DNA of 64,000 nucleotides from Escherichia coli. GTDB taxonomy: Bacteria > Pseudomonadota > Gammaproteobacteria > Enterobacterales > Enterobacteriaceae. Made by a program: the position numbers. Positions 56,601 through 59,600 of this stretch are shown here, piece after piece. Positions within the stretch are counted from its first letter, which is position 1. Every line of letters begins with the position of its first letter. The DNA is taken from assembly GCF_044324875.1 (NCBI RefSeq), contig NZ_CP172185.1; one strand, given 5' to 3'.

Positions 56601-59600
56601 GATGACCATAAAACAGCACAATGACGCCCAGCCCAAGCCAGAACGCAGGTGTGGAGATTCCGGTAATGGCCATTATTCGCACCAGATGATCCAGCCAGCG
56701 ATTTCGCCAGACTGCAGAGAGTATGCCCAGCGGGATGCCAATCAGGAGTGCCAGCAGCAGGGCACAAAAAGCCAGTTCCAGCGTCGCCGGGAAAAATATA
56801 CGCAACTCTTCCAGCACCGGACGCCCGGTACGAATGGATGTTCCCAGGTCACCCTGAAACAGGTCGCTGACGTAGCGGTAAAACTGTACGTACAGTGGCT
56901 GGTCCAGTCCCAGTTGCTGGCGAATATTATCCACGATAGCATCGCTGGCGCGGTCACCCGCCAGTAACCGCGCCGGATCGCCGGGGATCAGGTGCGAGAT
57001 AATAAACGTTATCACACAGACGCCCGCCACCACGAGCACCAGCCCCCAGCAGCGTTGGCGTAAAATACTCCAGAAGGTCACGTTATTTACTCATGGTATT
57101 GATATTGAAGACCTGTTCCAGCATGGGATTGAACACAAAACCTTTCACCTCTTTGTTCATCGCCAGTTGGTAGTTTTTCTGGAACAGGTACACATAAGCA
57201 GCGTCATCAATGACGATTTTCTGTGCCTGCTGGTAGTCCCGAGTACGCTGCGTCTGGTCGGTGGTCGCTAGCGCATTGCGCAGTAACTTATCGACCTCAC
57301 TGTTTTCATAGAACGAGCGGTTACCCGGCAGACCTTTTTTGTCTGACTCAAACCAGTAATTCATAAACATATACGGGTCGGCAAAATCCGGACTCCAGTT
57401 GCCAATCGCAATGTCATAATCACCTTTTCCCACTCTGTCGCGCATGGTGGCGTTCGCCAGCTTTTCCAGCTTCACGTTGATGCCCAGCTTGTTGAGACTG
57501 GATTGTGTCGCCAGAGCAATAGGCTCCCAGTTCGGATCATTATCAGAATAGAGAAACGTCAGGCTGGTGGGTTTGCTCGTCACTTTATCCCATTCGGCTT
57601 TGGCTTTCGTTTCGTCATGGTTGTATTGCATTGCCGTCGCATCGTATCCCCACATGCCTTCCGGAATCGGGCCGCGCATTTGTTTTCCGTTACCACTCAG
57701 AATGCCGTTAACCATACCCTGATAATCGGTAGACCAGGAAATGGCCCGACGCAGATCCGCCTGATTAAGTGGCGCTTTGCTGTTATTCAGATACAGATAG
57801 GTGACGCGCAGTGACGGATACTCTGCCACATTGACTTTGTTTTCCTGCTTCAGTGCGTTGAGTTGATCCACCGGCAGCGCATCGGCAATGTCAATGTCGC
57901 CACGGGAGAGCTGCAGGCGACGGGAAGCACTTTCACCGATAATTTTTACCGATACCCGTTTGAAATTCGGTTTATTGCCGGGGTAATGCGGATTTGGCAC
58001 CAGAACTAATTGCTGACCTTTTTGCCAGCTTTTCAGCATAAACGGTCCGGAGCCAGCGGTATTTTGCGCGAGGAAACCACGTGCATCATCCGCCGCATGC
58101 TCCTTTAAGACCGCCGGATTGATAATGGATGCACCGTCATTCGCCAGCGTGTAGAGGAACGGTGCGAATGGCTGGCTAAGGGTAAACCTCACTGTATGTT
58201 CGTCGGGAGCATCAATCTTTAAATCTTTGGGAAATGCTTCTGCTGGCCCCTGGCCGATTTTTAGTAACCGCTCAAAAGAGAGTTTTACTGCTTCGGCAGT
58301 GACAGGAGTGCCATCGGCAAATTTAGCATTATCCTTCAGGGTGAATGTCCACTCTTTTTGATCGTCAGACGCTTTCCAGCTACTCGCCAGATCGCCTTCA
58401 ACGTCGGTTGAGCCTTTATCACCGTCCGTTTTGTACTGAACCAGTCGCTGATAAGACGGGTAGGTCACTGTCCAGTCGTTATTATCAATTGTCACCGCTG
58501 GGTCGAGGGTTTGTGGGTCGGCAGCTTTACCGATCACCAGCATATCTTTCGGTACGGCGGCGTGCGCAACCGGCATTGTTGTGGCAAGGACGATCGCGAG
58601 CAATGTAGGACGAAACAAAATCGATCTCTTCATGACAGTTTCCTGATTAACTGGCGTGCTGTGTGCCAGGGGATATAAAACAGGTGAATTGATCAGCGAG
58701 TAGTGGGTAACTCGCTGCCTGGGGTAATTCGAAGTGCCACCATTCGCTCGGGATACCGACAAAGCCACCGCCAGTCATAATCGCATTCAGCAACAGCCGA
58801 TTGCGCTGAGCGGCGGGCGGGACGGAAGGGTGATAAGCATGGGAACGTTCGTGCATTTCATCGAACTCTGCACCCATATCCAGGATGTTCCCGTGCTCAT
58901 CACGAAGCGTCAGGTCGATCGCCGTGCCACGGCTGTGATTAGAACCGACCGTCACATCAACAACATATTGCGGGTCTGGGCAGGTTTGCCACAACATCGC
59001 CTGTGCTTGTTGTGGGCGATACGCATCGTAAATCACCAGTTGTAAGCCTGACAGCTGGGCGATACTGATACTTTTCGCCAGCGCAGTAATCGCATCCTTG
59101 TGTAACAGACAACGCGCTTGCTGATAAATAGCTTTGCCTGTGATGTTATCAGCGCAGGCGTATTTCAGTTCGATCTCCAGATCAGGGAAGATCACGGCTA
59201 AATCAACCAGTTCGGTGGTATCCGACATAAACGGTTCCTGTATAAGACAAAAATTGCTGCGCTTTCCGCTTATGCAGATCTCATGCCATGCCGGGATAAG
59301 CGCCAGAATGCTGGCTTAAAGTTATATTTTTTAACTTTTGATCAACATTTGTGCAGCGTAGTGCAGTTTTGGTGCAAGAGGGGAAGTTAAGGAAGGAATC
59401 TCCCGGAATCGTAGCTGAAATCACAGTATTTAAGTGACAGTGTCACTTTAAAGGAAAACCCGCGAGTGCGGGCGAGAGGAATTTGTCAGATTTTCAGCGG
59501 TAACACACTGCTCATCCAGCCTGGAATTTCTTCGGCGGGCAGGGGGCGGGAAAAGAAATATCCCTGAATAACGCGACAGTGGATCTTGCGTAGCATCTCA

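What the first reader, a model, noticed from the sequence alone, without database searches (positions are those of the whole stretch)
59271..59376. Sigma-54-type promoter and TGCAC repeats upstream of the ddp operon
The minus strand reads TGGCAT-N5-CTGCA with GG and GC correctly spaced for a -24/-12 promoter about 40 bp upstream of ddpX, and three TGCAC-containing half-sites lie ~80-100 bp further upstream where an NtrC-type enhancer would sit. This fits the reported nitrogen-limitation control of the ddp operon.
Basis: partly seen in the sequence, partly recalled or inferred. Interest (0 to 1): 0.35.

Follow-up and report, generated by a model that had tools for sequence, protein, structure and literature searches.

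The report
Known NtrC/sigma-54 promoter of ddpX

Summary
The window is E. coli. The dosP-ddpX spacer is identical to K-12 from 59445 to 59228.

- **Promoter.** The minus-strand 17-mer ATGGCATGAGATCTGCA (59289-59273) is the sigma-54 ChIP-seq site OS16 of Bonocora 2015. It was predicted earlier (Zhao 2010).
- **Published support.** The spacer lies under an NtrC ChIP-seq peak (Brown 2014). The spacer fragment is gel-shifted by NtrC and by RpoN holoenzyme. The authors report about 104-fold ddpX induction on nitrogen depletion and conclude it needs RpoN and NtrC (Shimada 2021).
- **Chance.** The motif is the best sigma-54 matrix hit in the window, but its score alone is not beyond chance (0.63 such hits per shuffled window). 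Position, conservation and experiments carry the case.
- **TGCAC repeats.** The three repeats (59376-59351, spaced 11 and 10 bp) are the only same-strand triple in the window (0.005 expected).
- **Refinement.** Comparison with 80 Enterobacterales loci resolves them into two weak 17-bp NtrC-type sites, centred about -106 and -85. The middle TGCAC is not conserved. Serratia and Raoultella carry better, partly near-canonical NtrC dyads in the same upstream interval.

Side findings: E. coli has lost an RpiR-family gene and a dyad that other genera carry between this promoter and ddpX. About 22% of complete E. coli genomes lack the whole ddp block.

The parts
59273..59289 (-). Sigma-54 -24/-12 promoter element ATGGCATGAGATCTGCA. 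GG is at 59287-59286 and GC at 59275-59274.
   Evidence: Sequence. Top matrix hit in the window at 15.9 bits. Identical to Bonocora 2015 site OS16 and to the Zhao 2010 prediction. TGGCA and TGC are invariant in 26 sequences from about 10 genera.
59262..59262 (-). Predicted transcription start, 12 nt downstream of the -12 C. Inferred, not mapped here.
   Evidence: Counting from GC at 59275-59274 gives a start 34 nt before the ATG. This equals the 'distance 34' in Bonocora Table 1.
59229..59261 (-). 5' untranslated leader, 34 nt counting the start at 59262, with Shine-Dalgarno AGGA at 59239-59236.
   Evidence: Sequence. The ACAGGAAnCGT..ATG stretch is homologous to the regulator-ddpX junction in Citrobacter.
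59360..59376 (-). NtrC-type site 1, TGCACCAAAACTGCACT, centre about -106. The left half is a perfect TGCACCA and the right half is degenerate.
   Evidence: 5 mismatches to the consensus. 7.4 bits, rank 31 of about 64,000 positions. Left half plus spacer 96-99% conserved across 26 sequences; right half 82%.
59361..59365 (-). Middle TGCAC repeat, lying inside the right half of site 1. It is not a conserved independent half-site.
   Evidence: The 17-mer starting here scores -3.9 bits. The C at 59363 is C in only 9 of 26 sequences; most read TGAAC.
59339..59355 (-). NtrC-type site 2, TGCACAAATGTTGATCA, centre about -85 and 21 bp (two helical turns) from site 1.
   Evidence: 4 mismatches and 5.3 bits. 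91-98% conserved. Closely similar sites in other genera are better dyads: TGCACAAATGTTGTGCG in Huaxiibacter at the aligned position, and TGCCCAAATGTTGTGCA in Serratia farther upstream.
59313..59345 (-). A/T-rich tract (79% A+T) between the activator sites and the promoter. It holds the invariant GTTAA (59335-59331) and the dyad AGTTA-N7-TAACT (59336-59320). Possibly a bend or a remnant operator; its role is untested.
   Evidence: Composition and sequence. GTTAA is invariant in 26 sequences. No IHF consensus within one mismatch.
58647..59228 (-). ddpX coding sequence (D-alanyl-D-alanine dipeptidase), first gene of ddpXABCDF.
   Evidence: ORF. Peptidase_M15 at 1e-78 and NF007557 at 331 bits, above its cutoff of 176. 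RefSeq annotation of a strain whose spacer is 100% identical to the window shows ddpX-A-B-C-D-F followed by osmC.
59458..59473 (-). Intrinsic-terminator-like hairpin plus T-run after dosP. It should insulate ddpX from dosCP read-through.
   Evidence: Terminator scan.
53253..59406 (-). The ddp block (activator sites, promoter and six genes), present or absent as one unit among E. coli strains.
   Evidence: About 1,170 of 5,391 matching complete genomes match only the dosP-proximal 79 bp of the spacer. In ST131, dosP is followed directly by osmC. Breakpoints from BLAST.

Best explanation
This is ddpXp, the known NtrC-activated sigma-54 promoter of the E. coli ddpXABCDF operon.

1. RNA polymerase carrying sigma-54 binds the -24/-12 element (59289-59273) and stays in a closed complex.
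2. Under nitrogen limitation, phosphorylated NtrC binds two adjacent weak sites centred about -106 and -85. They lie 21 bp apart, so on the same face of the helix.
3. NtrC oligomerises there and reaches the polymerase by looping across the A/T-rich spacer.
4. NtrC uses ATP hydrolysis to open the promoter.
5. Transcription starts near 59262 and gives a 34-nt leader. The operon then imports and cleaves D-Ala-D-Ala.

Status of the steps:
- Shown in K-12 (published; the sequence here is identical): sigma-54 binding at this motif, NtrC binding to the spacer fragment, and strong induction on nitrogen depletion, attributed by the authors to RpoN and NtrC.
- Inferred here: which bases NtrC contacts, the start point, and looping.
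- The weak sites imply activation only at high NtrC-P levels. That last point rests on general knowledge of NtrC promoters.
For: **Identity with K-12.** The spacer is identical from 59445 to 59228.

**Published evidence.**
- The sigma-54 ChIP-seq motif is the same 17-mer.
- ddpX rose 2.7-fold with rpoN overexpression and changed -2.1-fold in the rpoN mutant, with the same predicted promoter.
- NtrC ChIP-seq peak at ddpXABCDF.
- gSELEX lists the spacer as a site of RpoN holoenzyme, without and with NtrC. Gel shifts show NtrC, holoenzyme and ternary complexes. ddpX is induced 104.5-fold on nitrogen depletion.

**No competing promoter.**
- It is the best sigma-54 matrix hit in the window.
- No sigma-70-like promoter lies in the spacer, and a terminator follows dosP.
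- RpoD gSELEX lists no promoter in the spacer.

**Repeats.** The same-strand TGCAC triple occurs once, against 0.005 expected.

**Conservation.**
- Among 80 ddpX loci from other species, nearly all carry a strong sigma-54 motif with TGCAC or GTGCA sites about 75-135 bp upstream of it.
- In a 26-sequence alignment, a 46-bp island (59376-59331) and the TGGCA/TGC elements are conserved at 82-100%. The flanks are at 41-55%.
- 79% of loci have an NtrC-consensus match with 4 or fewer mismatches in the 95 nt upstream, against 4.2% of control windows. Raoultella has TGCACCTTCATTGTGCA, with 2 mismatches.
- My coordinate system reproduces the classical glnAp2 sites at -140 and -108.
Against: - In E. coli the two sites are poor matrix matches (7.4 and 5.3 bits, against at least 14.8 for training sites). 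They are individually at chance frequency in the window. A pair spaced 20-22 bp is expected 0.27 times per shuffled window.
- No experiment found here resolves NtrC binding to these bases. The gel-shift probe spans about 400 bp of the spacer and flanking coding sequence.
- The published NtrC ChIP interval (window 59229-59309) does not cover the repeats. The same offset is seen at glnA and glnH, where the sites are mapped.
- The right half of site 1 is out of register with the consensus by 2 bp.
- No IHF site was found to help looping.
- A 39-fold RpoS dependence in stationary phase is reported. The sequence does not explain it.
- The conservation counts are not phylogenetically independent.
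Confidence: 0.9

Rival explanations
1. The TGCAC repeats are a second sigma-54 binding site (CTTGCACCAAAACTGCA, 59378-59362), for example a tandem or decoy promoter, and not the NtrC enhancer.
For: This 17-mer is the fourth-best sigma-54 matrix hit in the window at 12.9 bits. [quoted passage not shown]
Against: - The -25 G is a T.
- The would-be -12 C (59363) is C in only 9 of 26 related sequences, and most read TGAAC. The TGCACCAAAA part is 96-99% conserved.
- About 4 hits of this score are expected per shuffled window.
- A start here would add about 90 nt of leader, and no evidence for such a leader was seen.
- Sigma-54 and NtrC consensus sequences share GCAC/TGCA, so cross-scoring is expected.
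Confidence: 0.05
2. The direct TGCAC repeats, spaced 10-11 bp, are bound by a different regulator. This could be a response regulator that recognises direct repeats, or Nac. NtrC control would then be indirect or exerted elsewhere in the spacer.
For: The repeats are direct, not inverted, and are helically phased. No 17-mer is a good NtrC dyad. The NtrC ChIP interval does not cover them.
Against: - Other genera carry better, partly near-canonical NtrC dyads in the same 95-nt interval upstream of the promoter. Huaxiibacter has one at the position aligned with site 2. Raoultella, Serratia and locus L060 have theirs about 100-115 bp upstream of the motif.
- No Nac (ATA-N9-TAT), CRP or IHF consensus is present in the spacer.
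- Purified NtrC shifts the spacer fragment.
- The ChIP offset is the same at glnA and glnH.
- I know of no regulator with a TGCAC direct-repeat consensus; that is memory only.
Confidence: 0.04
3. The motifs are chance matches. ddpX would be transcribed mainly from another promoter, such as an RpoS-dependent one or read-through from dosCP.
For: The sigma-54 matrix score alone is expected 0.63 times per window. The NtrC-like 17-mers are at chance frequency. ddpXA is reported 39- and 31-fold RpoS-dependent in EDL933.
Against: Published sigma-54 ChIP-seq at exactly this motif and the reported induction on nitrogen depletion. Cross-genus conservation of both elements. No sigma-70-like promoter and a terminator after dosP. 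No RpoD gSELEX site in the spacer.
Confidence: 0.01

Closest known systems
E. coli K-12 ddpXp (sigma-54 promoter of ddpXABCDF, b1488-b1483)
   Same: The sequence is identical over the whole regulatory region 59445-59228. It has the same 17-mer as Bonocora OS16 and the Zhao 2010 prediction, the same gene context dosP-ddpX-ddpA and the same 34-nt predicted leader.
   Different: Nothing in the promoter itself. Three substitutions lie farther upstream: two next to the dosP terminator and one in dosP.
Classical NtrC-dependent sigma-54 promoters glnAp2 and glnHp2
   Same: A GG/GC -24/-12 element with activator sites about 85-140 bp upstream and multiple adjacent sites in helical phase. My scan recovers glnAp2 sites at -140 and -108, and glnHp2 sites at -108, -121 and -134. 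ddpX site 1 at -106 is in the same position.
   Different: glnA and glnH sites are near-perfect dyads with 1-2 mismatches and 15-21 bits. The ddpX sites have 4-5 mismatches and 5-7 bits, with only the left halves strong. No IHF consensus lies between the sites and the promoter.
Orthologous regulator-ddpX-ddpA operon promoters of Citrobacter, Enterobacter, Mixta, Serratia, Raoultella, Pantoea and others
   Same: The same activator-site block. The 43-nt Citrobacter block TGCACCAAAACTGAACTACGCTGCACAAATGTTGATCA differs from E. coli at one base. The same TGGCA-N8-TGC promoter lies about 60-80 bp downstream.
   Different: Those loci carry a 289-aa RpiR-family gene between promoter and ddpX, in 66 of 80 loci. 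They also carry a TTGTTA-N4-8-TAACA dyad just downstream of -12, in 52 of 65 distinct loci. E. coli has neither, and its sites lie 11 bp closer to the promoter.

Membership tests
Sigma-54 (RpoN) dependent promoter | GG at -24 and GC at -12 in consensus register (TGGCAC-N5-TTGCA) | tested here: met
   ATGGCATGAGATCTGCA has GG at 59287-59286 and GC at 59275-59274.
Sigma-54 (RpoN) dependent promoter | Matrix score within the range of experimentally bound sites | tested here: met
   15.9 bits, against a training median of 16.1 and a minimum of 8.8 with ddpX left out. It is the top hit in the window. However, 0.63 such hits are expected per shuffled window.
Sigma-54 (RpoN) dependent promoter | Co-oriented with, and a short distance upstream of, a gene | tested here: met
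   44 nt from the motif end to the ddpX ATG, on the same strand. A terminator separates it from dosP.
Sigma-54 (RpoN) dependent promoter | Sigma-54 holoenzyme binds the site, and transcription requires rpoN and an enhancer-binding ATPase | not testable with these tools
   Published for the identical K-12 sequence: ChIP-seq; gSELEX, gel shift and RT-qPCR under nitrogen depletion, with wild-type, rpoN and ntrC strains compared; rpoN array data.
Sigma-54 (RpoN) dependent promoter | Conservation of the -24 and -12 elements in related genomes | tested here: met
   TGGCA and TGC are invariant in 26 sequences while neighbouring columns vary. Strong motifs lie upstream of the homologous operon in nearly all 80 loci.
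NtrC enhancer (upstream activator sites) | 17-bp dyad TGCACCA-N3-TGGTGCA | tested here: inconclusive
   Site 1 has 5 mismatches and site 2 has 4; matrix scores are 7.4 and 5.3 bits, against at least 14.8 for sites of other K-12 NtrC promoters. The left halves are 7/7 and 6/7. The right halves are degenerate.
NtrC enhancer (upstream activator sites) | Two or more sites close together and in helical phase, about 80-150 bp upstream of the start | tested here: met
   Centres at about -106 and -85, 21 bp apart. This is comparable with glnAp2 and glnHp2 in the same scan.
NtrC enhancer (upstream activator sites) | Conservation, and replacement by canonical NtrC dyads upstream of the homologous promoter | tested here: met
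   A 46-bp conserved island. Matches with 4 or fewer mismatches occur in 79% of loci against 4.2% of controls. Raoultella and locus L060 carry sites with 2 mismatches, and Serratia carries sites with 3. The sequences are related, so the counts are not independent.
NtrC enhancer (upstream activator sites) | NtrC-P protects these bases, and they are needed for activation | not testable with these tools
   Only fragment-level binding is published (about 400-bp probe), together with a ChIP interval of low resolution. No paper in the held library prints these site sequences.

The most novel reading that the evidence does not exclude
The Escherichia ddp control region is a trimmed version of an ancestral Enterobacterales operon. 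A deletion between the -12 element and the ddpX ribosome-binding site removed an RpiR-family regulator gene and its probable operator, the TTGTTA-N6-TAACA dyad at the start of the transcript. E. coli ddp is therefore under NtrC/sigma-54 control alone, without the substrate-specific regulator that other genera use. The retained enhancer is an unusually degenerate pair of half-strength NtrC sites and may need non-canonical NtrC assembly.
Probability: 0.3. Interest if true: 0.3.

Novelty: already known. Interest (0 to 1): 0.1.

Why it matters
The promoter itself adds nothing new. It is a catalogued member of the E. coli NtrC/sigma-54 regulon, which scavenges D-Ala-D-Ala during nitrogen starvation.

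The modest added value is comparative.
- The enhancer can now be placed on specific bases: two conserved sites, not three repeats.
- The same promoter and enhancer module is conserved across Enterobacterales.
- E. coli has lost a regulator gene and a dyad that other genera keep between promoter and ddpX.
- The whole block is missing from roughly a fifth of E. coli genomes.

These points are useful for annotation and for anyone designing ddpX promoter mutants. They do not open a major question.

Tried and rejected
- **Sigma-54 score as proof.** Rejected. Shuffles give 0.63 equal or better hits per window.
Built from 12 sites of other K-12 NtrC promoters. The ddpX sites score low and are at chance frequency, so this test alone neither supports nor refutes.
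- **Second sigma-54 promoter in the repeats.** Rejected on conservation.
- **IHF (one mismatch or fewer), Nac (ATA-N9-TAT) and CRP (two mismatches or fewer) consensus** in 59229-59485. None found.
- **Sigma-70-type promoter in the spacer.** None. RpoD gSELEX lists only an internal ddpA/ddpB site.
- **Rfam** at E-value up to 1 over 58900-59800. No hit.
- **BLASTN of the E. coli regulatory region against the other genera.** Only Escherichia matches were significant; the conserved blocks are too short. The comparison had to be anchored on the sigma-54 motif.
- **First upstream scan.** It looked only at the 400 nt before ddpX and missed the promoters, because a gene intervenes in most genera. Corrected.
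- **Literature.** Zimmer 2000 and Reitzer and Schneider 2001 are not held. The Shimada supplement gave primers only, and I found no site sequence for ddpX in it. No paper in the library prints the two site sequences.
- **NtrC ChIP interval as a site locator.** Rejected. It sits near the start site also at glnA and glnH.
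Full report
**What is there.** The window is Escherichia coli. The 501 bases around the finding match 5,391 of 5,426 complete E. coli genomes and lie between dosP and ddpX. ddpX is the ORF 58647-59228 on the minus strand. It matches Peptidase_M15 at 1e-78 and the D-alanyl-D-alanine dipeptidase equivalog above its cutoff. A strain whose dosP-ddpX spacer is 100% identical to the window is annotated dosC-dosP-ddpX-A-B-C-D-F-osmC. The dosP-ddpX spacer is identical to K-12 MG1655 from 59445 to 59228, so published K-12 experiments apply directly.

**The observation.**
- The minus strand reads ATGGCATGAGATCTGCA at 59289-59273. GG is at 59287-59286 and GC at 59275-59274. The motif ends 44 nt before the ATG.
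- Three TGCAC lie on the same strand at 59376-72, 59365-61 and 59355-51, spaced 11 and 10 bp.

**Is it more than chance?** I built a sigma-54 matrix from the 41 other intergenic ChIP-seq motifs in Table 1 of Bonocora et al. 2015.
- The site scores 15.9 bits, the best hit on either strand of the 64-kb window. It sits at the median of the confirmed sites.
- Dinucleotide shuffles give 0.63 hits this good per window. The score alone proves nothing.
- Confined to the right strand of a 257-bp spacer, the expectation is about 0.001 (my scaling).
- The same-strand triple of TGCAC within 26 bp is unique in the window, against 0.005 expected.
- Each overlapping 17-mer is a weak NtrC match, with 5, 5 and 4 mismatches to TGCACCANNNTGGTGCA.
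- On a matrix built from 12 sites of other K-12 NtrC promoters they score 7.4, -3.9 and 5.3 bits, against 14.8-20.9 for the training sites. Hits of that strength occur at chance frequency, 79 observed and 79.9 in shuffles.

**What is already published.**
- The 17-mer is sigma-54 ChIP-seq site OS16 of Bonocora 2015. Its motif centre is at 1561153 on the minus strand, upstream of b1488 ddpX, at distance 34. EcoCyc status was 'predicted' (PMC4591121).
- Zhao et al. 2010 predicted the same sequence. They found ddpX up 2.7-fold with rpoN overexpression and changed -2.1-fold in the rpoN mutant (PMC2831329).
- Brown et al. 2014 list an NtrC ChIP-seq peak at ddpXABCDF and cite earlier expression analysis (PMC4066584).
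- Shimada et al. 2021 list the ddpX/dos spacer among gSELEX binding sites of RpoN holoenzyme, without and with NtrC. They showed NtrC, holoenzyme and ternary complexes on a ddpX probe. [quoted passage not shown]
- The promoter and its control are therefore known.
- I found no paper that resolves NtrC binding to particular bases. The gel-shift probe spans about 400 bp. No paper in the library prints the site sequences.
- The NtrC ChIP interval corresponds to window 59229-59309 and does not cover the repeats. The same study's intervals for glnA and glnH also sit near the start site and not on the well-mapped sites. The interval therefore cannot locate sites.

**Comparative evidence.** A DdpX-based scan of one genome per species returned 80 Enterobacterales loci.
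- Only the two Escherichia loci and one metagenome-assembled genome (L048) have a strong sigma-54 motif about 40 nt upstream of ddpX. Three other loci have weaker or more distant candidates, 138-157 nt upstream, which I did not examine.
- Nearly all the others have a strong sigma-54 motif 920-1060 bp upstream, with TGCAC or GTGCA sites about 75-135 bp before it.
- The intervening sequence is a 289-aa RpiR-family gene. It matches HTH_6, and it resembles SapR at 380 bits, below that model's cutoff of 500. It is present directly upstream of ddpX in 66 of 80 loci and is absent from the whole window.
- In an alignment of 26 sequences from about ten genera, two islands stand out. One is a 46-bp block, 59376-59331, conserved at 82-99% per segment. 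The other is the TGGCA and TGC of the promoter, which are invariant. The flanks are at 41% and 55%.
- The Citrobacter block TGCACCAAAACTGAACTACGCTGCACAAATGTTGATCA differs from E. coli at one base.
- The middle TGCAC is the variable part. The C at 59363 is kept in only 9 of 26 sequences.
- Other genera have better sites in the same upstream interval. Huaxiibacter has TGCACAAATGTTGTGCG at the position aligned with site 2. Serratia has the closely similar TGCCCAAATGTTGTGCA farther upstream. Raoultella has TGCACCTTCATTGTGCA about 100 bp upstream of its promoter, near the position of site 1.
- Overall, 79% of loci have a match with 4 or fewer mismatches in the 95 nt upstream of the promoter, against 4.2% of control windows from the same loci.
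- These sequences are related, so the counts are not independent. Still, better dyads turn up repeatedly in this interval, which is hard to explain unless NtrC binds there.

**Refined anatomy.**
- The enhancer is best read as two 17-bp sites. Site 1 is TGCACCAAAACTGCACT, 59376-59360, centre about -106. Site 2 is TGCACAAATGTTGATCA, 59355-39, centre about -85. They are 21 bp apart, on one face of the helix.
- Each site has a strong left half and a degenerate right half.
- The same scan recovers the classical glnAp2 sites at -140 and -108 and the glnHp2 sites at -108, -121 and -134. This validates the numbering and shows that the ddpX sites occupy the usual position.
- The predicted start is 59262, which gives a 34-nt leader. 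This equals Bonocora's 'distance 34'.
- Between the sites and the promoter lies a 79% A+T tract with an invariant GTTAA. No IHF consensus is present.

**Mechanism.**
- Sigma-54 holoenzyme sits on the -24/-12 element in a closed complex.
- Under nitrogen limitation, NtrC-P occupies the two weak sites cooperatively and oligomerises.
- It loops to the polymerase and drives open-complex formation by ATP hydrolysis.
- The published K-12 work covers sigma-54 binding at the motif, NtrC binding to the fragment and induction on nitrogen depletion.
- Site assignment, start point and looping are inferred. Weak sites suggest the promoter fires only when NtrC-P is abundant; that rests on general knowledge of the regulon.

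**Rivals.**
- A second sigma-54 site in the repeats (12.9 bits) is undermined by the missing -25 G and the unconserved -12 C.
- A different regulator that recognises direct repeats is not supported by any consensus. It is also contradicted by the NtrC dyads upstream of the homologous promoters.
- Chance plus another promoter is contradicted by the published data. The spacer also lacks a sigma-70-like promoter, has a terminator after dosP and has no RpoD gSELEX site.
- The reported 39-fold RpoS dependence of ddpX in EDL933 remains unexplained by the sequence.

**Verdict.** The feature is already known, so interest is low. The comparative side findings are modestly interesting and are listed separately: loss of the regulator gene and dyad in Escherichia, and the presence or absence of the ddp block among strains.

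Noticed in passing
window 53253-59406: The whole ddp block (activator sites, promoter and ddpXABCDF) is missing from about 22% of complete E. coli genomes, including ST131. In those strains dosP is joined to osmC through about 66 bp of other sequence. The left breakpoint is 30 bp upstream of the first TGCAC.
   Followed up: partly
L025:1617-2486 and the equivalent position in 66 of 80 loci (L015-L092): In most other Enterobacterales a 289-aa RpiR-family regulator gene lies between the conserved NtrC/sigma-54 promoter and ddpX. It matches HTH_6 and is SapR-like at 380 bits, below the cutoff of 500. Escherichia lacks it, and the 64-kb window has no homologue. The ribosome-binding stretch ACAGGAAnCGT..ATG is still shared, which suggests a deletion between -12 and the ribosome-binding site in Escherichia.
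   Followed up: partly
L015-L092, the first 45 nt downstream of the sigma-54 -12 element (e.g. L025:1563-1607): A dyad TTGTTA-N4-8-TAACA lies immediately downstream of the promoter in 52 of 65 distinct loci, followed by a conserved TGACAG. It could be the operator of the RpiR-family regulator or a leader RNA hairpin. It is absent from E. coli. A similar dyad, AGTTA-N7-TAACT, sits at window 59336-59320.
   Followed up: no
window 59432-59448 (-): A perfect 17-bp palindrome AAGTGACA-C-TGTCACTT lies between the dosP terminator and the ddp block. The core GTGACACTGTCAC is kept in K-12, in Escherichia sp. E1V33 and in ddp-less ST131. There is no Rfam hit and no CRP match. Its function is unknown.
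   Followed up: partly
window 817-833 (-) and 46793-46809 (+): These are the next-best sigma-54 matrix hits: ATGGCAGGATGATTGCA at 14.6 bits and ATGGGACGCATTTTGCA at 13.8 bits. Neither sequence appears in the text or main tables of Bonocora 2015. Hits of this strength are expected by chance.
   Followed up: partly
L048:2330-2465: A metagenome-assembled Enterobacterales genome resembles E. coli in having ddpX directly behind a strong sigma-54 motif (CTGGCACAGACGCTGCA, 39 nt upstream). It also has a recognisable copy of site 2 (TGCACATTTGTTGATTT) and no RpiR-family gene. This may be an independent loss.
   Followed up: no
window 59229-59309 compared with 59339-59376: The NtrC ChIP-seq intervals of Brown 2014 fall about 90-150 bp promoter-side of the mapped or inferred NtrC sites at glnA, glnH and ddpX alike. 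This may reflect peak calling, or cross-linking of looped NtrC to the polymerase.
   Followed up: partly
window 59277-59280 and 59340-59343: Two GATC (Dam) sites fall inside functional elements. One is in the spacer between -24 and -12, in Escherichia only. The other is in the right half of NtrC-type site 2 and is kept in most of the 26 aligned sequences. Two in about 130 bp is not unusual by chance.
   Followed up: no
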